A stretch of DNA of 64,000 bases from assembly GCA_041651015.1 (NCBI GenBank), contig JBAZKA010000003.1:42572-106571 (forward strand). Reading direction: 5' to 3'. Made by a program: the position numbers and the translations under genes. The stretch's first letter is position 1, and every line of letters starts with the position of its first letter. Below the pieces are notes generated by a model. The model worked only from the letters and a program-made list of their open reading frames with translations, was not told where the DNA came from and ran no database searches. Origin of the DNA: Patescibacteria group bacterium. GTDB taxonomy: Bacteria; Patescibacteriota; Patescibacteriia; Magasanikbacterales; GWA2-37-8. Below, one piece after another: positions 395-62,922 of this stretch.

Positions 395-440
395 GTTCGG
401 GAATTTTTCACATTCATCCTGAACTCGGCAATAATATAAC
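395..440. repeat. Degenerate partial copy of the GTCATCCTGAACTCG palindromic repeat family
   Basis: 'cattcatcctgaactcggc' resembles 'gtgtcatcctgaactcgtttcaggatc' at 22362-22430. Lies between the 103-aa ORF and the 3' end of ftsW. Confidence 0.3.
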
Positions 441-491
441 ATCAACAAAAATCCCCCGCACATGCGAGGGATTTGTTTGTTAATTTAGATT

Positions 492-1595
492 TTATTCCCG
501 ACTTACACTCGCCACCACGCCTGCGGCCGCGAGACAAACAAGCATGGACGATCCACCGTGGCTTACGAATGGTAATGTCACTCCGGTTAACGGCAAAAGT
601 CCGACCATGGCCCCGATGTTCATACAAGCCTGCCAAAAAAACCAAATACTGACACCGCAAGCCAGCAAAAATCCGTAACGGTCCGGCGCTTCTTTGGCAA
701 TCTTGAGCCCGCGCCAAGCAATGAGTAAAATCAAACCGATTAAGGCGCACGAAATAACAAAACCCATTTCCTCGGAGATGATGGCAAAAATTGAATCCGC
801 TTCCACTTCGGGTAAGTACTGGTATTTTTGGCGCGAATGTCCGTAGCCTAGCCCGCCCCACCCGCCCGAACCAATGGCCAAATACGCTTGGCTCACATGA
901 TACCCAATGCCTTGCGGGTCAAGCTCGGGATGCAAAAATATTTTTAATCGGTCCGAACGATACGGCGCCGTGATAATGAGAATAATTACTGCGACTACGC
1001 CCGCGGCCGCGAGCGCGGCCAAAATCGGCTTTGATGTGCCGGCCACAAATAAAATTCCCACAACCATGCCTGCAATCACCACCAGTGTGCCGATGTCGGG
1101 CTGAACCGCGATGAGAAGCAAAGCTGGCGCGATCACGCCAAGCACGGGCAAGAGTCCGTTTTTCCAATCATGCAAATTTCTATCCGGGTCAGACAATAAA
1201 TCAGCCATGATAAATATAATCGCGAGTTTGGCCAATTCCGCCGGCTGAAAATGCATGAACCCTAAATTTATCCATGACGCCGCTCCTTTACCAAATGACG
1301 TGCCTATATGCGGAATAAAAACCATCACCAAAAGCGCCAGGCAGGCAATATAAAATACTCTACCGAGTTTACGCCACAAATCTGTATTAAAACGCGCGCA
1401 AATCAAAAACGCCAGCAAGCCCGGCAAGACGCCTTTGAGCAGTTGGGATTTTATAAAATAATATGTATCGCCGTGAACGCTGTAGCCGACCGGAGCGCTG
1501 GCCGAAGTCAAACAAAATAAACCAAAAGCCAACAATATTCCAATGCTGACCATATAAAATCTATCGGCTTTTTTGGCATTACCGGCAAGCGCCAT
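492..1595 (-). CDS. ftsW: SEDS-family peptidoglycan glycosyltransferase (FtsW/RodA/SpoVE)
   Basis: Polytopic membrane protein with the SEDS C-terminal signature '...GGWGGLGYGHSRQKYQYLPEVEADSIFAIISEEMGF'. Sits at the distal end of a dcw-like operon; ftsW rather than rodA is inferred from that context. Confidence 0.8.
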   Translation of the reverse strand: MALAGNAKKADRFYMVSIGILLAFGLFCLTSASAPVGYSVHGDTYYFIKSQLLKGVLPGLLAFLICARFNTDLWRKLGRVFYIACLALLVMVFIPHIGTSFGKGAASWINLGFMHFQPAELAKLAIIFIMADLLSDPDRNLHDWKNGLLPVLGVIAPALLLIAVQPDIGTLVVIAGMVVGILFVAGTSKPILAALAAAGVVAVIILIITAPYRSDRLKIFLHPELDPQGIGYHVSQAYLAIGSGGWGGLGYGHSRQKYQYLPEVEADSIFAIISEEMGFVISCALIGLILLIAWRGLKIAKEAPDRYGFLLACGVSIWFFWQACMNIGAMVGLLPLTGVTLPFVSHGGSSMLVCLAAAGVVASVSRE

Positions 1596-1597
1596 AT

Positions 1598-1951
1598 TTA
1601 CAAATTAATATCCACAATCAAATATACGGCTAAAGCCAAAAATAATTCCAGCACGGCCGTAAAAACCGTGAGGATGCGCGACAAAAGTTTGTCCGAGTTG
1701 AAAGTGTATATACCGGCGATAAAATTTATTATTACGAAAGCTAAGCCGACCACGGGCATAATCAAAATTCTCCACCATTCACCGACATAATCCACGCCAA
1801 AAATAATATTGTAATGCAAAAATAATGTACCGCCTTGCGTTCCCAAATTAAAAAAAATATACGGCCACATAAAAACTTGCGCCAAAGCCGATATGGCAAG
1901 CGGAACAAACACCCACGGGTCCTTAAAAAAAACTTTTAATAGGTAAAACAT
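1598..1951 (-). CDS. small integral membrane protein (117 aa), hypothetical
   Basis: Three or more hydrophobic helices. Tightly packed between ftsW (2-nt gap) and the Clp-like gene (3-nt gap). Confidence 0.45.
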   Translation of the reverse strand: MFYLLKVFFKDPWVFVPLAISALAQVFMWPYIFFNLGTQGGTLFLHYNIIFGVDYVGEWWRILIMPVVGLAFVIINFIAGIYTFNSDKLLSRILTVFTAVLELFLALAVYLIVDINL

Positions 1952-1954
1952 AAT

Positions 1955-4723
1955 TTAAGCGGTTATAATTTTTCCTCCCTCGCCGATAATAATTTTGTCT
2001 CTACGTTTGACCGAACCGGACAAAAGCAATTCGGCCAGTTTATTTTCCACGCGTTCTTGCAAAGCCCGTCGCATCGGACGCGCGCCAAAATCCGGATCAT
2101 AACCCACGTCAGCCAAGAATTCCAAAGCCGCATCTTCAATAATAAGTTCAATGCCTTTGGCCTCCAAATCTTTGGCCGTGCGCGCCAACATAAAGCCCGC
2201 GATTTGTTTGATGTTTTCCCGAGTTAGGGCTCGGAACAGCACAATACCGTCAAAACGATTTAAAAATTCGGGACGGAAATATTGTTTGAGCTCTCCATGC
2301 AACAACCGGTCTTTGATAGCATCAGACGACAAACCGGCGCGCAATTGCTCGGCCACATACGAAGTGCCGGCGTTTGAAGTGGCGATAATAATTATATTGG
2401 TGAAATCCACCACTCGTCCGGTGCTGTCGGTCAATCGCCCGTCATCCATCACTTGCAAAAATAAATTTAAAATATCCGGGTCGGCTTTTTCAATTTCATC
2501 CAACAGTAGAAGCGCGAATGGCTGACGGCGGATGGCTTCGGTCAAAATACCGGTTCCCTTTTCTCCGGGCGCACCAATCAGACGATACACACCGGACTTG
2601 TCCATGTATTCACTCATATCCAAACGGATCATTCGGTTCTCTCCGCCAAAATAAACTTCGGCAATGGTTTTAGCTAATTCTGTTTTGCCCACGCCGGTCG
2701 GGCCGAGAAATAAAAAGTTGGCAATCGGGCGGGTCTTGGAACGAATTTCCACGCGGGCTCGGCGCAAAGCGTTGGCCACCAAATCCACGGCTTCATCCTG
2801 GCCGACCACGCGTTTGTGCATTGCCTCTTCCAACAACATTAATTTACTTGATTCATCGGACGTCACGGTCGTGGCTGGAATGCCGGTTTTGTCTGCCACC
2901 ACCTGCGCCACCTCTTCACCCGAGACAAGGGAATCCGCGCCCTTTTTGTTGCGCGCATGCGAGCCGGCTTCACTGGCAATTTCTATGGCACTGCCCGGCA
3001 AACAATTTTCATGTAAAAATCTTTGCGCCAATTGCACGGATTTTTCCACCGCGTCATAAGCAAAAAATACTTGATTCTTGTGTTCAATCAAAGCGACTTT
3101 GGATTCCAAAACTTGGATGGCTGAGTTCTCGTCCATTTCGTGCACTTCCACTTTAGCAAAAACATTTCCCAACGCCGAATTGGAAATATAACGCGCAAAA
3201 TCTTCATCCGTACTCGTGGCAATGGTCAAAAACCGGCCGCCGCGTAAAAAATCCGCCAGTGTTCCGGCCACATCCAAACTACTACCTTCGCCGGCTGATA
3301 CGCCAATCAACTCGTGGACATTTGGAATATACAAAATCACATTTCGCGCGCGGGAAATTTCATTCATCATGGCAATCAAGCGTTCAATCGCGCCCGAAGC
3401 AGTCGTACCGGAAAGAAGTGAGGATACATTTAATTTAACCAAACGTTTGTCGCTCAAACGGCGAGGAACATCGTCTTCAATCATTTTGTCGGCCAATCCT
3501 TCCACAATACTGCGCTTGCCCACGCCATTAGAACCGGTGAGAAGCACGTTGGCCGCTCCGCCGTCCACCACGCGGAAAATTTCTTCAAATTCTTTTTCGC
3601 GCGCCACGCAATAATCAAATTGATTGAGTTGGGCCAAACGCGTCATGTCATCGCTAAAATTATTCAAATACGGCGTGGCTAAAGCGGTCATGGCTTTGTC
3701 CATGCCATATTTGGAGCGATGCGAACCCGCCCGCGCATGCTTCACATATTCGCGATATAATCTTTCACGGATACGCGCCCATTCCACCACGTTCATTAAT
3801 TTATTTTTTTCAATTTCCATGTCATACAATAATTCTTGCAGGGGCGGAGATTGTTTGATGCAGGCGACCAAAAGTTCGGTGACGCTCACGTATTCTTGAT
3901 GAGCGCTGTAGGCTTCTTCATACGCGCGAAATAAAATTTGCTGTATGTCAGGCGATAGAAGGGGCATGGAATGCGCGTTTTGCACTTGCGACGGCGCGTC
4001 AAAAAGCGAAACAATCCCCTCTTGCAATGATTTGGCCGGCAAACCAAGCCGGATAAAAATATTACCGATGCGATTAAACGAAAGTAAAGTGTAAAATAAA
4101 TGATTGGCTTCCACGTGCGCATAGTTTCTTTTGTCCGCGAAATTATAGGCTTCGGCCAGCACAGCCATGGCCTCATCGGTGAATGTCTTGTCAATTGCTA
4201 ATCGTTTACTGGAAGGAATTTTTTGGATTTGCTTCCAATCGGTTAGCGCCTCGGACTCTTCGGACGCGGACGTATGCTCATAATCAAATTTTTCCACCTC
4301 TAAATTTTTCTTGCGTTCGGTAATTTTGCGATACCAAAAATAAAGCAAAAACAAGGCGCCGAGACAAAATAAAAATTTGGAATAATACGGCAAACCTAGA
4401 ATCGCTGTCAGCCACTGTTCGGGCAGAGAAATAAAAGCCTGATAGGCGCCGGCGCGATAAGCAAAAAATATTGCCCACACCCAGAAGTTGAGCCAGAGGA
4501 CAATAAAAGTAATCCGGCGAATTTTGTTTCCGATTCTTCGGCCATTCACCATGGCGATGTTGTATCGCGTCAGAGGATATGTCCAAGCCAGCCATTTACC
4601 GCGCATCCGCACGCCCATGGAACGCCCACGGCATTCTTTGCAGACGCCAAAACCGCGCAAACCCGTTCCTTTGCACGAAGGGCATGTCGCGACATTCATT
4701 GGCGGTAGTTGCTCAAACAGCAT
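1955..4723 (-). CDS. ClpA/ClpC-like double-AAA+ ATPase with N-terminal C4 zinc ribbon and 2 TM helices; D1 degenerate, D2 intact
   Basis: N-terminus 'CPSCKGTG...CKECRG' (CxxC-x10-CxxC), then hydrophobic helices (about residues 70-130), then Clp_N-like repeats. D1 Walker A is 'GSNGVGKRS' (the Thr after Lys is Arg). D1 Walker B is 'ILYIPNVHE' where Clp has 'ILFIDELH'. D2 is canonical: 'GPTGVGKT', 'LLLDEIEKA', 'ATSN', and arginine finger 'GARPMRR'. Confidence 0.8.
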   Translation of the reverse strand: MLFEQLPPMNVATCPSCKGTGLRGFGVCKECRGRSMGVRMRGKWLAWTYPLTRYNIAMVNGRRIGNKIRRITFIVLWLNFWVWAIFFAYRAGAYQAFISLPEQWLTAILGLPYYSKFLFCLGALFLLYFWYRKITERKKNLEVEKFDYEHTSASEESEALTDWKQIQKIPSSKRLAIDKTFTDEAMAVLAEAYNFADKRNYAHVEANHLFYTLLSFNRIGNIFIRLGLPAKSLQEGIVSLFDAPSQVQNAHSMPLLSPDIQQILFRAYEEAYSAHQEYVSVTELLVACIKQSPPLQELLYDMEIEKNKLMNVVEWARIRERLYREYVKHARAGSHRSKYGMDKAMTALATPYLNNFSDDMTRLAQLNQFDYCVAREKEFEEIFRVVDGGAANVLLTGSNGVGKRSIVEGLADKMIEDDVPRRLSDKRLVKLNVSSLLSGTTASGAIERLIAMMNEISRARNVILYIPNVHELIGVSAGEGSSLDVAGTLADFLRGGRFLTIATSTDEDFARYISNSALGNVFAKVEVHEMDENSAIQVLESKVALIEHKNQVFFAYDAVEKSVQLAQRFLHENCLPGSAIEIASEAGSHARNKKGADSLVSGEEVAQVVADKTGIPATTVTSDESSKLMLLEEAMHKRVVGQDEAVDLVANALRRARVEIRSKTRPIANFLFLGPTGVGKTELAKTIAEVYFGGENRMIRLDMSEYMDKSGVYRLIGAPGEKGTGILTEAIRRQPFALLLLDEIEKADPDILNLFLQVMDDGRLTDSTGRVVDFTNIIIIATSNAGTSYVAEQLRAGLSSDAIKDRLLHGELKQYFRPEFLNRFDGIVLFRALTRENIKQIAGFMLARTAKDLEAKGIELIIEDAALEFLADVGYDPDFGARPMRRALQERVENKLAELLLSGSVKRRDKIIIGEGGKIITA

Positions 4724-4724
4724 A

Positions 4725-5084
4725 TTAAATAATTGTCTTGGAATGAATCATGCAGTACACAACCGCGACCGGTAGAGCCAGCCACACAAAAAACAATGCG
4801 ACGCAAACCAACATCCAGCCAACCAGCGCGATAGTCCGCGCTATCACTTGAATCAAACGCATCAGAAAACTGATAATTCGCCCTTGAATATCATACTGGC
4901 CAAACATGGGCACAAAAATATTCTTAAACCAAAGCCCGGGCGCGAGCGTGGCATTGCCGGACATAAATACTTGCGCGCACCAAACAATGGCGTGTTTGGC
5001 GCCAACCGTGTACCACCAAACCGGAAAATAAAATAAATCAAGAATGGCCAAGCCAAAAATTCTGGTAAATACAGTGATAAACAT
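4725..5084 (-). CDS. small integral membrane protein (119 aa), hypothetical
   Basis: Hydrophobic ORF. Its stop overlaps the start of the Clp-like gene (ATGA-type coupling). Confidence 0.45.
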   Translation of the reverse strand: MFITVFTRIFGLAILDLFYFPVWWYTVGAKHAIVWCAQVFMSGNATLAPGLWFKNIFVPMFGQYDIQGRIISFLMRLIQVIARTIALVGWMLVCVALFFVWLALPVAVVYCMIHSKTII

Positions 5085-5159
5085 ACGGGAGTATTATAAC
5101 ATAAAATGACAGAAAATAAAAAACCCATGGACATAGCCAAGGGTTTTCATATTTCATAA

Positions 5160-5588
5160 TTATTTTTTTGCCACCACTGACCCAACCGCGCTCAAATAGG
5201 TAATATTGTCCGCTCGGGTCAATCCGGCATTGGCAATTCGTTTCTCCAAAACAGGTAAGGAGTTGGCCGCCGCCATCTGCACATCCAAACCGCGAATTTC
5301 TTCATTGAGCGAAGCAACTTTATTTTGCAAATCACGCATTTCATAACCGCTGGTCGCGGCCGCGCTCACTTCGCGCACATACGCAAACACCAACAAGACT
5401 AGTATGCCCAGATAAATTCCGCGCGCCGCGCGCCCTTTTAACCATTCAGGGATGGCGCCACCGCGCGTTATTGTTTCCATATAACGGCGCAGGTAATTCA
5501 TCTGATATTTGATTTTTCGTTTTAGGGTCATAAAAAACGGTTGCAATATATTTGTCCCCTCTTCGCAAAAATTATTAAATTTTCTCAA
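5160..5588 (-). CDS. ftsL: FtsL-like septum formation initiator (single TM + coiled coil); true start probably at the internal Met near 5531
   Basis: Sits immediately downstream of rsmH as in dcw operons. Has a TM helix 'GIYLGILVLLVFAYV' followed by a coiled coil 'RDLQNKVASLNEEIRGLD'. The annotated start overlaps the rsmH 3' end by 14 nt. Confidence 0.5.
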   Translation of the reverse strand: MRKFNNFCEEGTNILQPFFMTLKRKIKYQMNYLRRYMETITRGGAIPEWLKGRAARGIYLGILVLLVFAYVREVSAAATSGYEMRDLQNKVASLNEEIRGLDVQMAAANSLPVLEKRIANAGLTRADNITYLSAVGSVVAKK

Positions 5589-6977: not shown

Positions 6978-7016
6978 GAAGTTAAAAGTTTATAAAGTTC
7001 ATAAAGTTATAAAGTC
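6978..7016. repeat. Tandem 9-mer (CTTTATAAA-like) element immediately 5' of the mraZ start codon; second copy at 55005-55043
   Basis: Minus-strand reading: 'gactttataactttatgaactttataaacttttaacttcggtATG'. It shares 'ctttataactttatgaacttt..aacttcg' with 55005-55043. Likely mraZ promoter/operator DNA. Confidence 0.55.
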
Positions 7017-7840: not shown

Positions 7841-7908
7841 TCTGGATCCCCGCCTTCGCGGGGATGACACTGCCGAAGGGATTCCTCGGCTTCGCTCGGA
7901 ATGACAGT
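7841..7908. repeat. Composite GC-rich palindromic repeat (module B GGATCCCCGCCTTCGCGGGGATGACAC + module A CCGAAGGGATTCCTCGGCTTCGCTCGGAATGACAG)
   Basis: Module B matches 52024-52050 and 58568-58615. Module A matches 41255-41318. Made of nested short hairpins. Intergenic here. Confidence 0.7.
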
Positions 7909-7910: not shown

Positions 7911-9272
7911 TTACACCTCCACCGCCTCCTCCGGATCAGCCACGGAAACTCGCACGCCCAATTCACTCTTAATTTTATCGGCTAAAGGCTGGCTTTGCTC
8001 GGGCTCGCCGTGATTCAAGACCACGCATTTGGGCGTTGAACCGTTGTTTTTAATCCAATTAAAAATTTTAATTCTATCCGCGTGCGCCGAGAGCACATCA
8101 ATAAACTCCACATGGCATTTGACTGCCACGTGTTCATTCAAGACGTCCACATGAGTCGCGCCATCCAAAATCTTCCTGCCCGGCGTGTGCATGGCTTGGA
8201 AACCGGTGAGAAATAAAGTATTGCGATTATCAGACAAATAGCGCAACGCGTGATACTGGATGCGTCCGCCGTTCATCATACCCGAACCGGCAATAATAAT
8301 TTTTTGGCCAATGACCGTATTGATGCGCTTGGAATCATCGCGCGAACGGGTCATTTTCAATCCGCCGAATTGGAACAAATCATCACCGGACCGGATATAC
8401 CTTTCCGCTTCTTCATCAAAATATTGCGTGTAGCGGTTAAACACGCCCGTTGCGTTGATGGCGAGCGGGCTGTCCAAAAAAATCGGAATGTTCGGCGGTA
8501 AAACTTGGTCGCGGTCAATCAAATCATTTAAATCATACAAAATTTCCTGGGTGCGTTCCACGGAAAAAGCCGGCATCATCAAAGTACCGCCCCGCTCAAG
8601 CGCCTCGGCCACAACTTTTTTAATGGCAGACTTGCGGTCAATACTCGTGTCGTGTTCGCGGTCGCCATAAGTGGACTCGCAAATCAGCAAATAAACATCT
8701 TTGGGCAAGGCGTCGGTATCGCGTAAAATCGGGACATTCACATTGCCCAGGTCGCCGGAAAAAACAACTTTTTTGCCGGCTAAATTTATTTCCAAAAATG
8801 CCGAGCCGAAAATATGACCGGCTTCATAAAATTTAAACCTGATGTTTGATGCCGGTAAATCAAAATCATCATAATAATCCACTTGGCGCATCATACCGAT
8901 AACCTTGGCCACATCATCTAAATTATACAGAGCCGGCCGGCCAAATTTCCGGGCGTGATATTCCATGATTTCGCATGCATCCTCCAAAATCAATCTGGCG
9001 ATTTCAATAGTCGGCGGGGTGGCATAAATTTGCCCGCTGAATCCGCGCTTTATGAGCAACGGCAAGCGTCCGACATGGTCCAAATGCGCGTGCGTGACAA
9101 ACACAGCCGTGAGAGCGCTGGCGTCAAAAGCAAATGGGTCGGCATTACGGTCTTCCACAAAGTCCCCTCCCTGAAACATCCCGCAATCAACCAAAATTTT
9201 AATATCTCCCTCTTCCAGCAAACTGCACGAACCGGTGACTTCTCCGGCCGCGCCAAAAAATGATAATTTCAT
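7911..9272 (-). CDS. metallo-beta-lactamase / beta-CASP family ribonuclease (RNase J/CPSF-like, COG1236-type)
   Basis: 'FGAAGEVTGSCSLLEEGDIKILVDCGMFQGG' and 'HAHLDHVGRLP' (the HxHxDH MBL motif). About 450 aa with a beta-CASP C-terminus. Confidence 0.7.
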   Translation of the reverse strand: MKLSFFGAAGEVTGSCSLLEEGDIKILVDCGMFQGGDFVEDRNADPFAFDASALTAVFVTHAHLDHVGRLPLLIKRGFSGQIYATPPTIEIARLILEDACEIMEYHARKFGRPALYNLDDVAKVIGMMRQVDYYDDFDLPASNIRFKFYEAGHIFGSAFLEINLAGKKVVFSGDLGNVNVPILRDTDALPKDVYLLICESTYGDREHDTSIDRKSAIKKVVAEALERGGTLMMPAFSVERTQEILYDLNDLIDRDQVLPPNIPIFLDSPLAINATGVFNRYTQYFDEEAERYIRSGDDLFQFGGLKMTRSRDDSKRINTVIGQKIIIAGSGMMNGGRIQYHALRYLSDNRNTLFLTGFQAMHTPGRKILDGATHVDVLNEHVAVKCHVEFIDVLSAHADRIKIFNWIKNNGSTPKCVVLNHGEPEQSQPLADKIKSELGVRVSVADPEEAVEV

Positions 9273-9280: not shown

Positions 9281-9335
9281 GTTAAATAATCCGCTCTTGG
9301 CGAATCGCCCCCAGGGGGCATTTAACAGGTTAAAT
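9281..9335. repeat. Inverted-repeat element GTTAAAT...CGCCCCCAGGGGGC...ATTTAACAGG (family 2); second copy at 41148-41197
   Basis: 'cgcccccagggggcatttaacaggttaa' here versus 'cgcccccaaggggcgatttaacagggttaa' at 41172. Lies in the divergent promoter region between the RNase gene and the 9396 gene. Confidence 0.55.
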
Positions 9336-15653: not shown

Positions 15654-15683
15654 TAATTTGTAATTAATAATTTACACAATAAA

Positions 15684-15710
15684 ACACCCCGCATTTGCGG
15701 GGTGTTTTTC
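15684..15710. terminator. bidirectional rho-independent terminator (recJ / YtxH-like gene)
   Basis: 'acaccccgcatttgcggggtgt' followed by 'ttttt', with an A-run upstream. A near-identical hairpin occurs at 62886-62913. Confidence 0.75.
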
Positions 15711-15739
15711 GTTCTTTCGTAAATTTTTGCAGGCGGTAT

Positions 15740-22361: not shown

Positions 22362-22430
22362 GCGTGTCATCCTGAACTCGTTTCAGGATCTATGGCCGAA
22401 AGATGCTGAAACAAGTTCAGCATGACGGTG
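22362..22430. repeat. double-hairpin repeat variant (GTCATCCTGAACtcgTTTCAGGATC ... ATGCTGAACaaGTTCAGCAT-GAC)
   Basis: Read directly. Shares the GTCAT/ATGAC ends with the other repeat family members. Lies between the UXS-like and S8 peptidase genes. Confidence 0.55.
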
Positions 22431-26054: not shown

Positions 26055-26100
26055 CCGTGGGATTGCCACGTCGCCCCTTCGGGGCTCCTCGCAATGACAA
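26055..26100. repeat. GC hairpin element 'GCCCCTTCGGGGC...CGCAATGACAA' immediately 3' of pyrG
   Basis: Ends in an AATGACA motif like the dispersed repeat family. Confidence 0.35.
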
Positions 26101-27729
26101 TTACTTTTTACTCACCGCCGCTTTAATCAAACCCATAAACAACGGATGCGGGGCGAGCGGACGGGATTTTAATTCCGGATGAAATTGCGAACCGACAAAA
26201 AACGGATGGTCTTTGAGTTCAATTATTTCCACCAAATCTGATTCTTTGTTTATACCGACTATTTTCAGGCCGGCCTTATCCAGTTCATCGCGATACTTAT
26301 TATTAAACTCAAAACGATGGCGATGGCGCTCGGAAATTTTATCCGTGCCATATAATTTCTGCACTTTACTCCCCGGTTTCAATTCACAATCATAAGCGCC
26401 CAGGCGCATGGTCCCGCCGTATTTCGCCTCTTGAATATTTTTCGCTTGATTGGGATTGACTTGGATAATAATGTTTGAACTTTTCGGATTGCATTCCACC
26501 GTGTGCGCGTCTCTGTAGCCCAGGACATCGCGCGCGAATTCAATGGCCGCGAGTTGCATGCCATAACACAAGCCAAGATACGGAATTTTATTTTCCCGCG
26601 CGTATTTAATCGCGGATATCACACCTTCCACTCCGCGTGTGCCAAATCCGCCCGGTACGACAATGGCGTCGAACCCGGACAATTCCTTCAATAGTTTGAC
26701 GTCTTTTTCATATTTTTCCGCGTCCACCCAAACCAATTCCGGCGATGCGCCATTATACCAAGAGGCGGTCTTGATGGCTTCAATCACTGAAATATACGAA
26801 TCGGCCAAAGTATAATTGCCGGTGCCAAAATATTTACCAATCACCGCCACTTTAATTTTTTTCTTAGCGGTATTTTTTTTGTTGATAAAGGCCGCCCACT
26901 CTTTGCCGTCTTTTTCTTTCAATTTCAATTTTAATTTCTTGGCGATAACCTTGCTGATATTATATTTTTCAAAATTATCCGGAATATCATAAATGGATTT
27001 CACATCCGGTGCCGGAATAATATCTTCTTTGGATTTAAGCGAACAGAAGAAAGCTAATTTTTCACGGCGCGGTTCATCCAATTCATCCTCTCCGCGAGCA
27101 ATAATAATATCCGCCTGCAAACCGGAATTGTTAAGCGTGCGGGCGGCGAACTGAGTAGGCTTGGTTTTCATCTCGCCCAAATGTCCGGGCACGGGCAAAT
27201 AGCTGACCAAAACAAAAATCACATCATCAGGCGTATCCATCTTCATCATGCGGGCCGCTTCCAGAAATAACACATTTTGATACTCGCCCAATGTACCGCC
27301 GATTTCAATCATCATTACTTGGGCTTTGGTTTTCTTGGCAGCGTTTTTGATCCGACCGATAACTTCCAACGGAATGTGCGGTACCACCTCCACGCAACGG
27401 CCCTTGTAGGCCATGCTTCGTTCCTTTTGGATGACGCTCTGGTAAATGCGTCCGGTGGTCATGTAGTTGATGGAAAAAATATCCGAGTTCAAAAATCTTT
27501 CATAATTTCCAATGTCCTGATCTGTCTCGTCGCCATCATCAGTCACAAATACTTCTCCGTGCTCAATCGGGTTCATGGTGCCGGCATCAACATTTATATA
27601 CGGGTCAATTTTCACGGCCGACGCGTGGATGCCATGATTTTCCAAAATGCGTCCGATTGACGCGACTGTAATCCCCTTGCCCACTCCGCTCATCACCCCC
27701 CCGATCACGAAAATGTATTTCGTCTTCAT
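26101..27729 (-). CDS. pyrG: CTP synthase
   Basis: 'MKTKYIFVIGGVMSGVGKGI', 'GLCYGMQ' (the GATase Cys), and 'HRHRFEFN'. Confidence 0.95.
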   Translation of the reverse strand: MKTKYIFVIGGVMSGVGKGITVASIGRILENHGIHASAVKIDPYINVDAGTMNPIEHGEVFVTDDGDETDQDIGNYERFLNSDIFSINYMTTGRIYQSVIQKERSMAYKGRCVEVVPHIPLEVIGRIKNAAKKTKAQVMMIEIGGTLGEYQNVLFLEAARMMKMDTPDDVIFVLVSYLPVPGHLGEMKTKPTQFAARTLNNSGLQADIIIARGEDELDEPRREKLAFFCSLKSKEDIIPAPDVKSIYDIPDNFEKYNISKVIAKKLKLKLKEKDGKEWAAFINKKNTAKKKIKVAVIGKYFGTGNYTLADSYISVIEAIKTASWYNGASPELVWVDAEKYEKDVKLLKELSGFDAIVVPGGFGTRGVEGVISAIKYARENKIPYLGLCYGMQLAAIEFARDVLGYRDAHTVECNPKSSNIIIQVNPNQAKNIQEAKYGGTMRLGAYDCELKPGSKVQKLYGTDKISERHRHRFEFNNKYRDELDKAGLKIVGINKESDLVEIIELKDHPFFVGSQFHPELKSRPLAPHPLFMGLIKAAVSKK

Positions 27730-29900: not shown

Positions 29901-29936
29901 ATACCGCCCGGGAAGGACGGTATTTTTAATTTTTTA
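29901..29936. terminator. bidirectional terminator between era and ctpA
   Basis: 'ataccgcccgggaaggacggtat' followed by 'ttttaattttttatt'. Confidence 0.6.
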
Positions 29937-31232
29937 TTTCTGCGTGGTAGTCGCGTCTTTCACCGGAGGCCAGAGCGAAGCCGACAATAAATCCAATGCT
30001 TTGTCTAACATTTTATCTTCGCCGATTTTTTCATTAGTCCAATCCTCCACTAATTTTATGTCAGGTGCGATGCCGTCTTTGTTTATATTTCGTCCATTCG
30101 GCGTATACCACTCGGCCACGGTTAATTTCAAAGCCGAGCCATCGGTAAATGTTTGGAAATCCTGAACCGAACCTTTGCCAAAAGTTTTTTCACCGATGAT
30201 GGTCGCTAACCCGTGGTCTTGCAAAGCGCCGGACACAATTTCCGAAGCCGAGGCCGAACCTCCGTTTACAAGCACGACGGTTTTAATGCCATTCAAAAGA
30301 TGTTTACCCGAAGTCAAATGTTGATTGTCCACCCCATTGTCGGATTTTTCACTCACAATCACGCCGTTATCCACCCACTCACTCGCCATACTCACGGCCG
30401 CATCCAAAAATCCACCCGGATTATTGCGCAAATCAAGCACGATGCCCTTCGCGCCTTCACTGGTTAATTTATTTGTATATTTATCAAACAGGCTTTCCGT
30501 ATCCTCATTAAATTGTAAAATTCTAATGTAAGCAATTTTATCTCCCTTCCAAGAAAATTCCACCGAGGGCACATTGATTTTTTGCCGGGTAATTTTTACG
30601 TCAAACGCATCGCTCAATCCATCACGACTGATCGTTAAAGTGACGACGCTACCGGCCTCACCGCGAATATAATTCACAGCCGTGTTCACATCCAAACCAT
30701 AAGTGCTAGTCGCATCAATCGCCAAAATTTTATCACCGGCATGCAAGCCCGCTTTCTCGGCCGGAGAATCAGCCAGAGGACAAACAATCATCAATTGCTC
30801 GCCTTTGATGCCTATTTCCGCGCCAATGCCTTCAAATTCACCGGATAAATCCTTGGCAAATTCATCAGCCACGGTCGGCACCATATACATTGAATACGGG
30901 TCGCCGAGCGAATACACCAAACCTTGAATTGCGCCGTAAAATAAATCCGCGTCTTTCACGTCTTTATTTACATATTTTGATTTGACGGTATCCCACACTT
31001 CCCAAAATTGATTGAAATCAACCGAATCGGATTTATTTATGGAACGATTCAGATTCAAAACCTTGCTGATAGAAATTTCGCCATTGGCATCGGTCGTTTG
31101 CTTTTTGACAATCAGCATCTGCCCGGTAAGAAGACCGAGGCCGAAAGCCGCCACAAATAAAATTACGGCGAAATAAACGCCGATGTATTTTTTAAAACGC
31201 GCGCGAGACGGCGCGATATTTGTTTCGGGCAT
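29934..31232 (-). CDS. ctpA: carboxyl-terminal processing peptidase (S41, PDZ-containing)
   Basis: N-terminal TM, a PDZ region, and 'GIVLDLRNNPGG...GGSASASEI' (the S41 Ser/Lys motifs). Confidence 0.85.
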   Translation of the reverse strand: MPETNIAPSRARFKKYIGVYFAVILFVAAFGLGLLTGQMLIVKKQTTDANGEISISKVLNLNRSINKSDSVDFNQFWEVWDTVKSKYVNKDVKDADLFYGAIQGLVYSLGDPYSMYMVPTVADEFAKDLSGEFEGIGAEIGIKGEQLMIVCPLADSPAEKAGLHAGDKILAIDATSTYGLDVNTAVNYIRGEAGSVVTLTISRDGLSDAFDVKITRQKINVPSVEFSWKGDKIAYIRILQFNEDTESLFDKYTNKLTSEGAKGIVLDLRNNPGGFLDAAVSMASEWVDNGVIVSEKSDNGVDNQHLTSGKHLLNGIKTVVLVNGGSASASEIVSGALQDHGLATIIGEKTFGKGSVQDFQTFTDGSALKLTVAEWYTPNGRNINKDGIAPDIKLVEDWTNEKIGEDKMLDKALDLLSASLWPPVKDATTTQK

Positions 31233-40722: not shown

Positions 40723-41340
40723 CTATTTCGCGAGCATAACCCTTGCGGCCTTAATCACTCTGTCCCCCATCTTAAAACCACCGGAAATTTCTTTGACGAT
40801 TTCGTCTTCGCCCGCGCCTTCAATCGTTTCATGCCCGACCGCCTCATGATATTTCGGGTCAAACTTTTCACCAACAGTTTTTATTTCTTCAACGCCGTGC
40901 GCTTTCATAATATCAGCAAATTGTTTGAGCACGTGATTCACGCCGTCAAGCCAAGGATTATTTTCACCCGCGACTCCGCTCGTGGACATTTTCAAATGCT
41001 CGTAAACCGGAATAAATTCTTCCAATATCTGCTGTTCACTCATTTGCGCCCATTCGGCCCGGCGGGCCAAAGTTTCTTTTTGTAAATTTTGATAATCCGC
41101 CAGAGCTCTCTGCCAGCCAATTTTATATTCTTCAGCTTCGGCTTTTACCCTGTTAAATTCAGCTTCGCTGACGCCCCCAAGGGGCGATTTAACAGGGTTA
41201 ACTTTTTCACAATTCTTGCAGGTCTTGTGAAAAAATGATTTTTTTTCCGCTACTGCATCACCCCGAAGGGATTCCTCCGCTTCATTCGCTTCGCTCGCTC
41301 CGGTCGGAATGACAGGTGGAATATTTTGTTCGTCAGACAT
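40723..41340 (-). CDS. grpE: nucleotide exchange factor GrpE (N-terminal about 65 codons composed of repeat elements; true start uncertain)
   Basis: C-terminal GrpE core 'WQRALADYQNLQKE...KMSTSGVAGENNPWLDGVNHVLKQF...GHETIEGAGEDEIVKEI..GFKMGDRVIKAARV'. Confidence 0.8.
   Translation of the reverse strand: MSDEQNIPPVIPTGASEANEAEESLRGDAVAEKKSFFHKTCKNCEKVNPVKSPLGGVSEAEFNRVKAEAEEYKIGWQRALADYQNLQKETLARRAEWAQMSEQQILEEFIPVYEHLKMSTSGVAGENNPWLDGVNHVLKQFADIMKAHGVEEIKTVGEKFDPKYHEAVGHETIEGAGEDEIVKEISGGFKMGDRVIKAARVMLAK
41148..41197. repeat. family-2 inverted-repeat element (CCCTGTTAAAT...CGCCCCCAAGGGGCG...ATTTAACAGGG) inside the grpE 5' coding region
   Basis: Matches 9281-9335. Would be translated as NPVKSPLGGVSEAEF. 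Confidence 0.55.
41255..41318. repeat. module-A palindromic repeat (CCCGAAGGGATTCCTCCGCTTC...CGGAATGACAGG) inside the grpE 5' coding region
   Basis: Matches 7871-7908. Would be translated as PTGASEANEAEESLRGDAV. Confidence 0.6.
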
Positions 41341-51364: not shown

Positions 51365-52183
51365 TTATTTTTGTTGTTTGATTCTACCCCAAACACGCCA
51401 TAAAGTCAAGATGATAAAAAACCCAACAATCCCCCACTGCGCCGGAGTTAAATGCCAATACCGCGCATCGGCGCCAATAACGTCATCGGCCCGAAGAAAA
51501 TCCAAAAAAAATCTGCCGAACGCGTAAAGCATAAACCCGAATACGGGTGAACCGACTTTTTTTATCACCCGAACACGGCGCGTGAATAATAAAATGAAAA
51601 AAATAATCAATGCCAGAATGGAATCCATCAGCCCCAAATCATAACGCGCGCCATAAGGAAAATTCACGGACAAGAAAAAATTCGTCAGACGTCCGACGTG
51701 GTCGTGAATCAAAAAACATCCGATGCGTCCAATCGCCCAGCCCAACCAAAAATATATGCCGATAATTTCCGCGTATGGTCTGAAATCCGTCCATTTTATT
51801 TTTTTATTTTTTAGAAATATCCAAAGACCGGCCAGCGCTCCCGCAAATCCACCAAGAGAAGACGCCCCGCCGTGCCAAATTTTTAGAATTTCCGCGGGAT
51901 TTTCCCAATAATAAATTGGTTCGTAAAAAATAATGTGAAAAATTCTGGCGCCGATGAAACCGCCGAAAATCAGCCAAAAGAATACGCTCCACATGGTCTC
52001 GGGATTCAAGATGACGCCCTCCTGGATTCCCGCCTTCGCGGGAATGACACGAACGGACGCTTTCATAATTTCCCGCAAACAAAAAAATAAAGCAATGAGC
52101 GCGCCCAGCGCCACGCAAATCCCCCAGACCTGCAGGGTAATCGGTCCGAGCGAAATTGTTTGCCAAGAAAAATACGGGATCAT
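51365..52183 (-). CDS. lgt: prolipoprotein diacylglyceryl transferase Lgt, carrying an in-frame repeat-element insertion in the TM1-TM2 loop
   Basis: 'ISLGPITLQVWGICVALGALIALFF', 'FFWLIFGGFIGARIFHIIFYEP', 'HGGASSLGGFAGA'. Loop residues 45-55 'RVIPAKAGIQE' are encoded by repeat 52024-52050. Confidence 0.85.
   Translation of the reverse strand: MIPYFSWQTISLGPITLQVWGICVALGALIALFFCLREIMKASVRVIPAKAGIQEGVILNPETMWSVFFWLIFGGFIGARIFHIIFYEPIYYWENPAEILKIWHGGASSLGGFAGALAGLWIFLKNKKIKWTDFRPYAEIIGIYFWLGWAIGRIGCFLIHDHVGRLTNFFLSVNFPYGARYDLGLMDSILALIIFFILLFTRRVRVIKKVGSPVFGFMLYAFGRFFLDFLRADDVIGADARYWHLTPAQWGIVGFFIILTLWRVWGRIKQQK
52024..52050. repeat. module-B palindromic repeat GGATTCCCGCCTTCGCGGGAATGACAC inside the lgt coding sequence (in frame)
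   Basis: Identical core at 7845-7870 and 58568-58615. The ATTCCC-N8-GGGAAT hairpin is encoded as VIPAKAGIQ. Confidence 0.7.
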
Positions 52184-55004: not shown

Positions 55005-55043
55005 TACTTTATAAACTTTATAACTTTATGAACTTTCAACTTC
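55005..55043. repeat. tandem 9-mer element ACTTTATAA-ACTTTATAA-CTTTATGAA-CTTTCAA at the gatC/gatA junction (copy of 6978-7016)
   Basis: Plus strand: 'actttataaactttataactttatgaactttcaacttc'. Overlaps the gatC stop and the gatA RBS region. Confidence 0.55.
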
Positions 55044-57013: not shown

Positions 57014-57760
57014 CTAAATCTGTATCTTCCTAAAGAAATAACTACCCAGCGACCAGAACAATACAGTCACTGCGCCGAGGACGATAAAATCCATGGTCAA
57101 GCCGTAATGTCCGGCGCCGATAAGCAAAGCGCGAAGAGCGTCAATGCCGTAAGATAGCGGATCAATCTGCGCGATAATGGCGAGCGCGGCCGGCAGGCCG
57201 TCCAGCGGGAAAAGCGCGCCCGAGAGAAAAAATAACGGCATGACCAAAAAATTCATAATGAGTTGGAAGCCTTGCATATCGTCAAGCAAAGACGCGATCA
57301 TAGTGCCGAGCGAAGTAAAAAGAAGCGAAACCAAAAACATGATAAGAATAGCCGGAATAATCATGAGCCAACTTACCGGATGAAAACCAAACAGCATGGC
57401 GATAAACATCACGATCACGCCTTGCAAAGTCGCGACAGTCGCCCCACCCAAAGTCCGGCCGATCATAATGCTTAGGCGCGACATGGGCGCGACCAAAGTT
57501 TCTTTGAGAAAACCAAACTGCCGGTCCCAGATTACTTCCATACCGGAAAAAACCGAAGTGAACAAAATACTCATCCCGATAATTCCGGGCGCGAGAAAAT
57601 TTAAATAATTTCCCTCGCCGGCTTTTTGGTACACTGAACCAAAACCATAACCCATGGCCAATAAAAATAATAACGGTTGCGCAAGCGAACCGACAATGCG
57701 CGATTTGGAACGCAGATAACGCTTGATTTGTCTGAGCCAAAGAATGTATATTTTTTTCAT
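57014..57760 (-). CDS. ABC-2 type transporter permease
   Basis: 6 TM helices. 4-nt gap to the upstream ATPase gene. Confidence 0.8.
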   Translation of the reverse strand: MKKIYILWLRQIKRYLRSKSRIVGSLAQPLLFLLAMGYGFGSVYQKAGEGNYLNFLAPGIIGMSILFTSVFSGMEVIWDRQFGFLKETLVAPMSRLSIMIGRTLGGATVATLQGVIVMFIAMLFGFHPVSWLMIIPAILIMFLVSLLFTSLGTMIASLLDDMQGFQLIMNFLVMPLFFLSGALFPLDGLPAALAIIAQIDPLSYGIDALRALLIGAGHYGLTMDFIVLGAVTVLFWSLGSYFFRKIQI

Positions 57761-57765
57761 AATAG

Positions 57766-58572
57766 TTAGCGTTTGTTATTGGTATGCATGCGGTGCATGG
57801 CGCGGAAATGATCCATGGAACCGACCGTCTCCTCGCGAATACTCTTGCCGGTCAAAGCGAGAAACGCGTCTTCCAGCGAATTGGTATTGGTTTGCTTTTT
57901 CAAATCATCGGCCGTACCTGAGGCAATAATTTTCCCATGGTCAATCACGGCAATCCGATCGGCGATGCGCTCAGCTTCTTCCATGTAATGCGTGGAAAAA
58001 AATATTGTAGTCTTTTCGTTTTTATTTAGCTCGCGCAGATGCGCCCACAAAGCATTTCTGGTTTGCGGGTCCAATCCGAGAGTCGGCTCGTCAAGAAAAA
58101 ATATTTTCGGATGATGCAAAAGTCCGCGGGCGATTTCCAACCGGCGCTTCATTCCGCCGGAAAATTCTTTGACCAAATTATCTCGGCGTTCCCACAGTTC
58201 CACGAACTTGAGCAAATATTCAATTCTCTCTTTGCGTAATTTATCCGGCACATCATACAACACGCCGTGAAATTCCATATTTTCATAAGCGGTCAGATCA
58301 TCATCCAAACTCGGATCTTGGAACACAATACCAAATGACCGGCGGGCTTCATCGGATTCACGCACCGGGTCATGCCCGTTCAAATCCATTTCGCCCGAAG
58401 TCGGCTTGAGCAAAGTGGTCAGCATTTTAATGGTGGTGGATTTACCCGCGCCATTCGGACCGAGAAAAGCAAAAATTTCTCCTTCTTTAACTTCAAAGGA
58501 AATGTTGTCCACGGCCGTAAAGCCGTCAAATTTTTTCGTCAGATTTTTGACTGATATCATATTTTTTGTCAT
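57766..58572 (-). CDS. ABC transporter ATP-binding protein
   Basis: 'LGPNGAGKSTTIKML', 'LSGGMKRRLEIARGL', and 'IFFLDEPTLGLD'. Confidence 0.9.
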   Translation of the reverse strand: MTKNMISVKNLTKKFDGFTAVDNISFEVKEGEIFAFLGPNGAGKSTTIKMLTTLLKPTSGEMDLNGHDPVRESDEARRSFGIVFQDPSLDDDLTAYENMEFHGVLYDVPDKLRKERIEYLLKFVELWERRDNLVKEFSGGMKRRLEIARGLLHHPKIFFLDEPTLGLDPQTRNALWAHLRELNKNEKTTIFFSTHYMEEAERIADRIAVIDHGKIIASGTADDLKKQTNTNSLEDAFLALTGKSIREETVGSMDHFRAMHRMHTNNKR

Positions 58573-58615
58573 TCCCGCACCCGCTTCGCGAGTATAAACT
58601 CCGGCGGGAATCCAG
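58568..58615. repeat. module-B-like palindromic repeat GTCATTCCCGC...GCGGGAATCCAG overlapping the annotated ABC ATPase start codon
   Basis: The GTCAT end of the repeat is the reverse complement of the ATGAC at the annotated start. A second Met follows 4 codons later. Confidence 0.6.
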
Positions 58616-62870: not shown

Positions 62871-62885
62871 TAATATAGACATTAA

Positions 62886-62913: not shown

Positions 62914-62922
62914 GTTTAAAAT

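What the first reader, a model, noticed from the sequence alone, without database searches (positions are those of the whole stretch)
7841..7908. Dispersed family of short GC-rich nested-hairpin repeats (GTCATTCC / GGAATGACA ends)
I found at least six copies or variants by eye: 7841-7908 (a composite of two modules), 41255-41318, 52024-52050, 58568-58615, the variant 22362-22430, and remnants at 395-440 and 26055-26100. Shared cores are GGATYCCCGCCTTCGCGGGRATGACAC and CCGAAGGGATTCCTCSGCTTC...GGAATGACAG. They are GC-rich in a genome of about 44% GC. They are modular, and they sit at gene ends, in 5' regions and inside ORFs. This resembles MITE, REP or Correia-like elements. At this density it would be a substantial and apparently undescribed repeat family.
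Basis: seen in the sequence. Interest (0 to 1): 0.55.

Follow-up and report, generated by a model that had tools for sequence, protein, structure and literature searches.

The report
Ssn-related hairpin DNA repeats (NTS/SRM)
The short GC-rich hairpin repeats are real and dispersed, but they belong to the NTS / "Ssn-related motif" family described in 2025, which small GIY-YIG single-strand-DNA nucleases recognise; this is a new occurrence in a Patescibacteria genome, with two copies inserted in frame into genes.

Summary
The window carries eight hairpin modules at six loci, plus one half-module. All share the plan T-GTC + AT-stem…stem-AT + C.

The interpretation "undescribed family" does not hold. 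Module B (52022-52049) equals the published Neisseria NTS consensus with one mismatch. Modules A and B match the published "Ssn-related motif" (SRM) pattern of Chenal et al. 2025.

The other classes miss that pattern. These are a 25-nt class (F1, F2), a weak-stem class (C, D) and two nested long forms (G, E). Even so, the same or near-identical sequences sit beside Ssn-like GIY-YIG genes in other genomes.

In 80 loci from a scan of 185,579 species genomes, 83 of 85 such genes have a module within 100 nt. About 18 of the 80 loci come from Patescibacteria. The usual geometry is [module→] gene [←module], about 18 nt away. The stem covaries strongly with almost no G·T pairs, which fits a DNA hairpin.

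Modules B and D lie in frame inside lgt and grpE. Orthologous loci show empty and differently filled sites, so the modules are gained and lost.

No Ssn gene lies in the 82 kb of this contig that I could read, so the cognate nuclease in this genome is untested.

Verdict: a new member of a known kind, of moderate interest.

The parts
7845..7868 (-). Module A. 24-nt NTS-type hairpin, GTCATCCCCGCGAAGGCGGGGATC, with flanks T...CAG. It is the second of two tandem modules downstream of the beta-CASP/MBL gene 7911..9272(-).
   Evidence: It matches the published SRM pattern. As ssDNA it folds at -9.7 kcal/mol, z = -4.35. The same 24-mer fills the lgt site in the related genome L006.
7880..7905 (-). Module C. 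26 nt, GTCATTCCGAGCGAAGCCGAGGAATC, with tail CCTTCGG. It starts 5 nt after the stop codon of 7911..9272(-).
   Evidence: It shares a core with module D. It is only a weak hairpin (z = +0.42). Near-identical sequences lie next to Ssn-like genes: L010:2363-2387 flanks a paralogue, and copies occur in L018 and L089.
22366..22390 (+). Module F1. 25-nt class with an 8-bp stem and 5-nt loop, GTCATCCTGAACTCGTTTCAGGATC. It lies in the spacer between the S8 protease gene and the epimerase gene.
   Evidence: ssDNA fold z = -3.97. It differs by one base from the module upstream of the Ssn-like gene in L044.
22402..22426 (-). Module F2. 25-nt class, GTCATGCTGAACTTGTTTCAGCATC. It is inverted relative to F1 and 11 nt from it.
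   Evidence: ssDNA fold z = -4.53. It is identical at 25 of 25 bases to the module downstream of the Ssn-like gene in the alphaproteobacterial MAG L044.
26061..26098 (-). Module G. 38-nt nested hairpin, GTCATTGCGAGGAGCCCCGAAGGGGCGACGTGGCAATC. It starts 2 nt after the stop codon of pyrG, 26101..27729(-).
   Evidence: ssDNA fold -8.9 kcal/mol, z = -2.2. The same class occurs at L079:3776-3810 and, flanking an Ssn paralogue, at L010:2685-2715.
41270..41313 (-). Module D. 44-nt long form of C. It is inserted in frame in the N-terminal tail of grpE, 40723..41340(-).
   Evidence: The grpE start codon is conserved in L006 and L009, which both lack the insert. The Pfam GrpE domain begins at residue 58. 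The hairpin is weak (z = +0.63).
52025..52048 (-). Module B. 24-nt NTS-type hairpin, GTCATTCCCGCGAAGGCGGGAATC. With its flanks (52022-52049) it equals the NTS consensus with 1 mismatch. It is inserted in frame in lgt, 51365..52183(-), and encodes VIPAKAGIQ.
   Evidence: SRM pattern match. ssDNA fold z = -4.21. The Pfam LGT domain covers residues 10-259, and E. coli Lgt aligns across the site with gaps. Of 120 Lgt homologues, 117 lack any insert here.
58568..58612 (+). Module E. 45-nt nested long form: outer NTS stem, inner hairpin, then TAAACTCCGGCGGGAATC. It lies 7 nt upstream of the called start of the ABC-transporter ATPase gene, on the opposite strand.
   Evidence: ssDNA fold -10.2 kcal/mol, z = -2.93. 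A near-identical long form sits 6 nt upstream of an Ssn paralogue in the Parcubacteria MAG L058:5010-5055. At least 120 metagenome contigs carry this form.
413..427 (+). Half-module remnant, TTCATCCTGAACTCG. This is the 5' arm of an F1-type module. It lies in the convergent spacer upstream of the ftsW stop codon.
   Evidence: It matches F1 at 14 of 15 bases. Three window matches at up to 2 mismatches were found against 0.01 expected.

Best explanation
The repeats are members of the NTS / Ssn-related-motif (SRM) family. These are oriented DNA hairpins with the plan T-GTC, then a stem that begins with AT, a loop or inner hairpin, the complementary arm ending in AT, and then C.

In the characterised cases the hairpin forms on one strand of single-stranded DNA. 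A roughly 95-aa single-domain GIY-YIG nuclease (Ssn) binds it and cuts a few nucleotides 5' of it.

The copies in this window are 'orphan' modules scattered away from any nuclease gene. They sit directly after stop codons, before a start codon, in a spacer, and in frame in permissive parts of two proteins.

They are gained and lost between closely related genomes. I infer that they spread as, or with, an IS-like [module→] ssn [←module] cassette, and that each class of module is paired with its own Ssn paralogue.

Shown here:
- sequence membership of A and B
- the hairpin plan, and covariation of the 24-nt-type stem (tested on 91 sequences, of which only A and B are from this window)
- recurrence of every window class next to Ssn-like genes elsewhere, including in Patescibacteria
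- presence/absence polymorphism at orthologous sites

Inferred:
- that this genome encodes a matching Ssn
- that the modules are cut as ssDNA here
- the mechanism of spread
- any effect on recombination of incoming DNA
For: 1. Literature. NTS = CGTCATTCCCGCGMAVGCGGGAATCYRG, and the SRM pattern is defined in PMC11893778. Module B matches NTS with 1 mismatch. A and B match the SRM pattern: 2 hits against 0.09 expected.

2. Common plan. All 8 modules share it. Six fold as stable ssDNA hairpins whose stem starts right after GTC and ends right before C (z from -2.2 to -4.5). This agrees with the paper's mutagenesis. The three bases 5' of the palindrome matter for cutting, and the C just 3' of it matters most for binding.

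3. The protein family. A GIY-YIG family of 94-97 aa (PF01541) has more than 8000 members in the database. A 94-aa member has Tyr6, Tyr17 and Glu64 at the catalytic positions. These are the residues mutated in the 94-aa Neisseria SsnA.

4. Association. In 80 genome loci there are 85 such genes:
- 83 have a module within 100 nt
- 66 have one upstream on the same strand
- 70 have one downstream on the opposite strand
- 57 have both
- the median gap is 18-19 nt
About 18 of the 80 loci are from Patescibacteria.

5. Every window class recurs next to such genes.
- B: an exact 24-mer at L058:5344-5367.
- E: L058:5010-5055.
- F1 and F2: L044, with 1 mismatch and 25/25 identity.
- C, D and G classes: they flank the second paralogue in L010; the G class also occurs in L079.

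6. Covariation. I used 89 24-nt modules picked only by their GTCAT/ATC anchors and their nearness to an Ssn gene, plus A and B.
- 98.8% of cells are paired.
- 76 cells show a change on both sides, against 10.5 +/- 2.9 in shuffles (0 of 500 shuffles reach this).
- Five of 8 pairs show compensatory changes.
- Only 5 of 728 cells are G·T.

7. Turnover.
- The lgt site is empty in L009. It is filled with an NTS-type module in the window and in L006. It is filled with two other modules in L007.
- L006 Lgt is closer to L009 Lgt (84%) than to the window's Lgt (76%).
- The grpE insert is absent from L006 and L009, while L006 has another module elsewhere in grpE.
Against: - No GIY-YIG ORF was found in the window or in the 82 kb of the source contig I could read. 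The cognate nuclease in this genome is therefore unshown.
- Six of the eight modules do not match the published SRM pattern.
- Modules C and D are not stable hairpins on their own (z > 0).
- I identified the Ssn family through a consensus recalled from memory and its architecture, not through the CDD model cd10448 that defines it in the paper.
- The paper found that a hairpin with an altered stem sequence is not cut by Neisseria SsnA. Modules with other stems would therefore need other paralogues.
- Two of eight modules lie inside genes, against 2% in N. meningitidis.
Confidence: 0.85

Rival explanations
1. REP/BIME-type repeats served by a REP-associated tyrosine transposase (RAYT, an HUH Y1 enzyme).
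For: Both are short GC-rich extragenic hairpins with a conserved 5' head. Both occur as mixed tandem or inverted clusters: A with C, and F1 with F2.
Against: The Pfam tables covering about 31 kb of the window and its 18.4 kb of flanks show no Y1 transposase domain. The head here is GTCAT, whereas classical REPs begin with GTAG (the GTAG head is from my own knowledge). In 83 of 85 cases the adjacent gene elsewhere is a GIY-YIG protein in a fixed geometry.
Confidence: 0.03
2. The hairpins act mainly at the RNA level, as terminators, mRNA 3'-end stabilisers or translational elements. The repeats exist because of that function.
For: Modules C+A and G begin 5 and 2 nt after stop codons, on the sense strand. 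Module E lies 7 nt before a start codon.
Against: - No T-run follows the hairpins.
- B and D lie inside coding sequence.
- No Rfam family overlaps any module, even at E <= 1.
- Stem changes are almost all double changes, with only 5 G·U-type cells of 728. That is unusual for a selected RNA helix.
- Neisseria SsnA does not bind the RNA form.
Secondary exaptation of single copies is not excluded.
Confidence: 0.07
3. The modules are recombination or integration targets for another mobile element (for example an IS110-family or Piv/MooV-type recombinase, or a filamentous phage), as reported for Neisseria dRS3, rather than substrates of Ssn.
For: - The paper notes that dRS3 was identified as a target of a phage recombinase.
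- Module E lies at a gene-content breakpoint between related genomes.
- The exact 28-mer of B occurs in 39 predicted viral contigs.
Against: The Pfam tables covering about 31 kb of the window and its flanks show no such recombinase. This use does not explain the stereotyped pairing with GIY-YIG genes. The two roles are not mutually exclusive.
Confidence: 0.05
4. The similarities are chance, or the by-product of coding constraints.
For: The loose structural scan alone is only about five times above shuffles, with a shuffle maximum of 9 against 10 observed.
Against: - Cores of 27 and 21 nt recur against 0.00 expected.
- Identical 24-, 25- and 28-mers occur in unrelated genomes whose GC ranges from 0.43 to 0.71.
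- Of 120 Lgt homologues, 117 lack the insert.
Confidence: 0

Closest known systems
Neisseria NTS / dRS3 repeats and the wider 'Ssn-related motifs' (SRM) recognised by SsnA-family GIY-YIG ssDNA nucleases (Chenal et al., Nat Commun 2025, PMC11893778)
   Same: - Module B equals the NTS consensus with one mismatch, and A and B fit the SRM pattern.
- They share the oriented plan: GTC, then a palindrome beginning with AT, then C.
- They share the ssDNA hairpin.
- The same modules flank roughly 95-aa GIY-YIG genes in the NTS-ssnA-NTS arrangement.
   Different: - The host is a Patescibacteria MAG. The paper's text names no such group, although I found Ssn-like genes in about 18 CPR genomes.
- Six of eight modules fall outside the published SRM pattern. 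They belong to a 25-nt class with a 5-nt loop, a class with a 5-bp outer stem, and two kinds of nested long form (G, and E with its conserved TAAACTCC).
- Two of eight modules are in frame inside genes, against 2% in N. meningitidis.
- No ssn gene was seen in the part of this genome available to me.
REP/BIME elements with RAYT (TnpA-REP), and IS200/IS605 subterminal hairpins
   Same: Both are dispersed hairpins recognised on single-stranded DNA by a small nuclease or transposase. The gene for that enzyme is itself flanked by the hairpins. Both form clusters of mixed orientation.
   Different: The enzyme fold differs: GIY-YIG here, HUH Y1 there. The conserved head differs: GTCAT here, whereas the classical REP head is GTAG (from my own knowledge). 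Transposition by Ssn has not been demonstrated.
Rickettsia palindromic elements (RPE)
   Same: They are palindromic repeats that insert in frame into protein-coding genes and add a peptide segment to a tolerant part of the protein. This description of RPEs is from my own knowledge. The paper lists Rickettsia among genomes with more than 300 SRMs.
   Different: RPEs are about 100-150 bp, whereas these inserts are about 30-60 bp. I did not test whether RPEs contain SRM cores.
Correia elements / MITEs
   Same: They are short, abundant and intergenic, and they break assemblies.
   Different: Correia elements have terminal inverted repeats and a TA target duplication (from my own knowledge). Neither feature is seen here.

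Membership tests
NTS / Ssn-related motif (SRM) repeats | Sequence fits the NTS consensus (one mismatch allowed) or the degenerate SRM pattern HGTCWYN(0-2)YYVSBRHN(0-5)WNVSBRGN(0-2)RNCYNB. | tested here: met
   B fits NTS with 1 mismatch. A and B fit the SRM pattern: 2 hits against 0.09 expected. The other six modules do not fit the pattern as written.
NTS / Ssn-related motif (SRM) repeats | Forms a hairpin on one strand of ssDNA, with orientation set by non-palindromic flanks: a conserved GTC 5' of the stem and a C 3' of it. | tested here: met
   Six of eight modules are stable ssDNA hairpins with the stem bounded by GTC and C. All eight have the flanks. Stem covariation is strong in 91 sequences. 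C and D are weak hairpins.
NTS / Ssn-related motif (SRM) repeats | The same kind of module flanks genes for single-domain GIY-YIG (Ssn) proteins of about 95 aa. | tested here: met
   83 of 85 Ssn-like genes have a module within 100 nt, and 57 have the [→] gene [←] geometry. Each window class recurs at such genes.
NTS / Ssn-related motif (SRM) repeats | The genome that carries the repeats encodes an Ssn homologue. In the paper this held for 81% of genomes with more than 200 SRMs. | not testable with these tools
   None was found in the 82 kb of the 186-kb contig I could read. The rest of the MAG could not be fetched. A profile search returned more than 8000 hits with no way to pick out this genome. 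One trial look-up landed in another sample.
NTS / Ssn-related motif (SRM) repeats | Bound, and cut a few nucleotides upstream, by the cognate Ssn, as ssDNA only. | not testable with these tools
   This is biochemistry. It has been shown for four homologues in PMC11893778.
NTS / Ssn-related motif (SRM) repeats | [quoted passage not shown] | not tested
   No CDD search was available. Indirect support: length of 94-97 aa, PF01541 only, and Tyr6/Tyr17/Glu64 in a 94-aa member matching the residues mutated in the 94-aa SsnA.
REP / RAYT | A Y1 (HUH) transposase gene flanked by the repeats. | tested here: not met
   The Pfam tables, which cover about 31 kb of the window and its flanks, show no Y1_Tnp domain. 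Elsewhere the flanked gene is a GIY-YIG protein.
MITE / Correia-like element | Terminal inverted repeats plus a target-site duplication at filled versus empty sites. | tested here: not met
   By eye, the filled/empty comparisons at lgt and grpE show no evident duplication and no TIR outside the hairpin. I ran no dedicated search for either.
Known structured RNA families (Rfam 15) | A match to a covariance model. | tested here: not met
   No hit overlaps any module, either at gathering thresholds or at E <= 1.

The most novel reading that the evidence does not exclude
The modules and their GIY-YIG genes could together form a still unrecognised class of mobile element that moves through single-stranded DNA. 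Several nuclease paralogues would each mobilise their own hairpin class (24-nt, 25-nt, weak-stem and nested long forms).

In the tightly packed genomes of Patescibacteria these hairpins would repeatedly land in frame inside essential genes. The same lgt loop was hit in three related lineages with different modules.

The published SRM definition would then cover only part of a larger, multi-class system shared across phyla by horizontal transfer.
Probability: 0.3. Interest if true: 0.65.

Novelty: new member of a known kind. Interest (0 to 1): 0.36.

Why it matters
**Annotation.** These modules create spurious peptides such as VIPAKAGIQ and GFLGFARND. They extend ORFs and break assemblies: a Logan contig ends 4 nt after module A. 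Recognising them avoids false gene calls.

**Biology.** The window shows three things.
- The Ssn/SRM system reaches Patescibacteria.
- One small genome can carry several hairpin classes, some of which the published search pattern misses.
- The hairpins can sit in frame inside lgt and grpE and turn over between close relatives.

Turnover is direct comparative evidence for mobility, which the 2025 paper only hypothesised. If Ssn limits recombination of incoming single-stranded DNA, as it does in Neisseria, that would matter for organisms thought to depend on DNA uptake (that dependence is from my own knowledge).

Tried and rejected
- **GIY-YIG search in the window and related loci.** I used two motif regexes on six-frame translations. 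The first was too narrow and the second broader. Neither gave a credible hit.
- **Walking the source contig.** Only proteins encoded in the window can be looked up, so I gained only 18.4 kb beyond the window ends. One look-up failed because the ORF start differed from the called gene.
- **Finding this MAG's own Ssn.** A profile of Patescibacteria Ssn proteins returned 8000 hits with no taxon or sample labels. One trial look-up, P0246, landed in a different sample, ERZ27253378. I abandoned this line.
- **Supplementary tables of the 2025 paper.** None are held as text.
- **Other literature.** Searches for the peptide signatures and for follow-up papers found nothing relevant beyond PMC11893778.
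- **A MITE-like origin for F1/F2.** I considered that the pair is a derivative made of the two ends of an ssn cassette with the gene deleted. L044 shows the same inverted pair already standing upstream of an intact ssn gene. The pair is therefore a recurring composite unit, and the deletion idea is not needed.
- **NCBIfam.** It has no model for this protein family. Only sub-threshold group I intron endonuclease hits appeared. The nearest PDB sequences are two UPF0213 proteins, at E of about 1e-4.

Full report
**1. Observation**

A structural scan for GTC + AT-palindrome + C gave eight modules:
- A: 7845-7868 (-)
- C: 7880-7905 (-)
- F1: 22366-22390 (+)
- F2: 22402-22426 (-)
- G: 26061-26098 (-)
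- D: 41270-41313 (-)
- B: 52025-52048 (-)
- E: 58568-58612 (+)

It also returned two AT-rich hits that are probably chance.

A half-module at 413-427 matches F1 at 14 of 15 bases.

The loose scan alone is only modestly above shuffles: 10 against 2.2 +/- 1.6, with a maximum of 9. The significance therefore rests on the sequence identity between copies.

Window GC is 42-47%.

**2. Anatomy**

Read on the GTCAT strand, every module follows the same plan:
- (T)GTC
- a stem whose first two bases are AT
- a loop or an inner hairpin
- the complementary arm ending in AT
- C, usually followed by AG or AT

The stems differ between classes yet stay complementary:
- ATTCCCGC / GCGGGAAT
- ATCCCCGC / GCGGGGAT
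- ATCCTGAA / TTCAGGAT
- ATGCTGAA / TTCAGCAT
- ATTGC / GCAAT
- ATTCC / GGAAT

Folded as single-stranded DNA, A, B, E, F1, F2 and G are stable hairpins (z from -2.2 to -4.5). In each, the helix starts right after GTC and ends right before C. C and D are not stable on their own (z > 0).

**3. Identification**

A full-text search for the repeat ends found Chenal et al. 2025 (PMC11893778). That paper makes four relevant points.
- It defines the 28-nt Neisseria Transformation Sequence (NTS), CGTCATTCCCGCGMAVGCGGGAATCYRG, which encompasses the older dRS3 repeat.
- It defines a degenerate 'Ssn-related motif' (SRM).
- It shows that SsnA, a 94-aa single-domain GIY-YIG protein, binds the hairpin only as ssDNA and cuts a few nucleotides upstream.
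- It shows that the three bases 5' of the palindrome matter for cutting, and that the C just 3' of it matters most for binding.

Module B with its flanks equals NTS with one mismatch. A and B match the SRM pattern exactly: 2 hits against 0.09 expected. The other six modules do not match that pattern.

**4. Are the other classes part of the same system?**

I wrote a consensus of the small GIY-YIG family from memory and searched with it. It retrieved more than 8000 proteins of 94-97 aa, with PF01541 only, at about 80% identity. A 94-aa member has Tyr6, Tyr17 and Glu64 at the catalytic positions. These are the residues mutated in the 94-aa SsnA.

A scan of 185,579 species genomes with an alignment of these proteins returned 80 loci. 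About 18 of them are from Patescibacteria: Saccharibacteria, Doudnabacteria, Paceibacterota, Parcubacteria, Moraniibacteriota, Uhrbacteria, Howlettbacteria and unclassified members.

Those loci hold 85 Ssn-like genes:
- 83 have a module within 100 nt
- 66 have one upstream on the same strand
- 70 have one downstream on the opposite strand
- 57 have both
- the median gap is 18-19 nt

Every class seen in the window recurs in this position.
- **B:** the exact 24-mer lies 5 nt downstream of an ssn paralogue in a Parcubacteria MAG, at L058:5344-5367.
- **E:** a near-identical long form lies 6 nt upstream of that same gene, at L058:5010-5055.
- **F1 and F2:** both lie next to the ssn gene of an alphaproteobacterial MAG, L044, with 1 mismatch and 25/25 identity.
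- **C, D and G classes:** they flank a second, more divergent paralogue in L010. A G-type copy also lies in L079.

The E-type long form has an outer NTS stem, a variable inner hairpin and a conserved TAAACTCCRGCGGGAATC. It occurs on at least 120 metagenome contigs with GC from 0.29 to 0.62.

Upstream and downstream modules of one gene resemble each other more (0.70) than modules of different loci do (0.53). L058 carries three paralogues in 6 kb, each with its own module type.

**5. Covariation**

I took 89 distinct 24-nt modules chosen only by their GTCAT/ATC anchors and their nearness to an ssn gene, and added A and B. In the full anchor-only set of 103 such modules, 94 have 8 of 8 Watson-Crick pairs.

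Results on the 91 sequences:
- 98.8% of cells are paired.
- 76 cells show a change on both sides, against 10.5 +/- 2.9 in shuffles (0 of 500 shuffles reach this).
- Five of 8 pairs show compensatory changes.
- Only 5 of 728 cells are G·T-type.

This fits a DNA hairpin better than a selected RNA helix.

**6. Context in the window**

- C and A stand in tandem, beginning 5 nt after the stop codon of a beta-CASP gene.
- G begins 2 nt after the pyrG stop codon.
- F1 and F2 are an inverted pair in a 151-nt spacer.
- E lies 7 nt before the called start of an ABC ATPase gene.

**B is inside lgt.**
- The Pfam LGT domain spans residues 10-259. E. coli Lgt aligns from residue 3, with gaps at the insert.
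- The insert encodes VIPAKAGIQ in the first inter-helix loop.
- Of 120 Lgt homologues, 117 have no insert there.

**The DNA alignment at the lgt site**:
- Empty in L009.
- Filled with an NTS-type module in the window.
- Filled in L006 with the compensatory ATCCCCGC / GCGGGGAT version.
- Filled in L007 with two different modules.

L006 Lgt is closer to L009 Lgt (84%) than to the window's Lgt (76%). The pattern therefore needs either independent gains or a clean loss.

**D is in frame in the N-terminal tail of grpE.**
- The start codon is conserved in L006 and L009, and both lack the insert.
- L006 has another NTS module elsewhere in grpE.

**7. Source, and the missing nuclease**

The window is part of ENA ERZ27247363 contig k141_2794475 (186 kb). 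NCBI labels the organism 'Patescibacteria group bacterium', and several of the named Lgt homologues come from Candidatus Magasanikbacteria.

No GIY-YIG ORF is present in the window or in the 18.4 kb of flanks I could fetch. No further modules lie in those flanks. I could not reach the rest of the genome.

**8. Mechanism**

Shown:
- family membership by sequence for A and B
- the shared oriented hairpin plan
- DNA-type covariation of the 24-nt-type stem, tested on sequences that are mostly from other genomes
- stereotyped pairing of all classes with Ssn-like genes elsewhere, including in Patescibacteria
- gain and loss at orthologous sites

Inferred:
- that a matching Ssn (probably several paralogues) is encoded elsewhere in this genome
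- that it binds these hairpins when the DNA is single-stranded (replication, repair or uptake) and nicks 5' of them
- that the modules spread with or through the IS-like cassette
- that, as in Neisseria, cutting of incoming ssDNA may shape recombination

**9. Rivals**

- **REP/RAYT:** disfavoured. No Y1 transposase was found, and the partner gene elsewhere is a GIY-YIG protein.
- **A primary RNA role:** disfavoured. There are no T-runs, two copies lie in coding sequence, no Rfam hit overlaps a module, and G·U-type pairs are scarce. Exaptation of single copies remains possible.
- **Use as integration targets:** possible, and not exclusive of the main explanation.
- **Chance:** excluded.

**10. 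Verdict**

It is a new member of a known kind.

The parts that go beyond the 2025 description are:
- the Patescibacteria host
- several hairpin classes that the published pattern misses
- in-frame insertion into lgt and grpE
- comparative evidence of turnover

Interest is moderate (0.36).

Noticed in passing
window 41146-41199; partial copy 9306-9335; L006 hrcA-grpE spacer (about L006:16550-16650): A second small palindromic element has termini CCCTGTTAAAT...ATTTAACAGGG. One copy is inserted in frame in grpE and is absent from the L006 and L009 grpE genes. A roughly 100-nt element with the same termini fills the hrcA-grpE spacer in L006. The 11-mer alone is not significant in the window: 4 hits against 1.4 expected.
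   Followed up: partly
window 58568-58612 and the neighbouring genes 57014..58560: Module E lies at a gene-content breakpoint. The window has an ABC ATPase plus ABC-2 permease pair where the syntenic loci L006 and L007 have a FAD_binding_4 gene on the other strand.
   Followed up: no
L002 (Logan SRR8542065 contig), end of locus at 11432: An independent assembly of the same organism ends 4 nt after module A. This is consistent with the repeat breaking the assembly.
   Followed up: no
L210-L248 (IMG/VR contigs): The exact 28-mer of module B occurs on 39 predicted viral contigs with GC from 0.43 to 0.71. One of them, L213, has an Ssn-like gene 20 nt downstream of the module. I did not check whether these contigs are truly viral.
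   Followed up: partly
L058 (Parcubacteria MAG NZCD01000039.1), 400-5400: Three Ssn-like paralogues lie within 6 kb, each flanked by its own module type: ATCCCGGC, ATCCCGTA, and ATTCCCGC with a long form. A divergent paralogue in L073:255-536 (44% identity) is flanked by modules with a 5-bp stem and a long loop.
   Followed up: partly
window 15665-15713 and 62868-62916: A 49-nt stretch is 90% identical between two distant places. It contains a CCCCGCATTTGCGGGG hairpin followed by a T-run, which looks like a shared intrinsic terminator (family D11).
   Followed up: no
window 6994-7015 and 55015-55036: A perfect 22-nt inverted repeat, AAAGTTCATAAAGTTATAAAGT, occurs 48 kb apart. One copy lies just upstream of mraZ (I25).
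   Followed up: no
window 52180-53538 (-): The LOG-like / 'lysine decarboxylase' family gene is an internal tandem duplication. DNA repeats 651 nt apart are 76-90% identical, and Pfam finds two domain stretches.
   Followed up: no
window 30157-30278 (+): A sub-threshold Rfam match to Rickettsia sRNA47 (RF02800): 37.9 bits against a gathering score of 60, E = 3e-6. It lies opposite the ORF 29934..31232(-).
   Followed up: no
window 35857-35894, 36049-36086, 54173-54210: A GC-rich 38-nt repeat family (74-84% identity) lies inside two ORFs, one of them the gatA amidase. I suspect it is Gly-rich coding similarity rather than a mobile repeat. I did not test this (D3).
   Followed up: no
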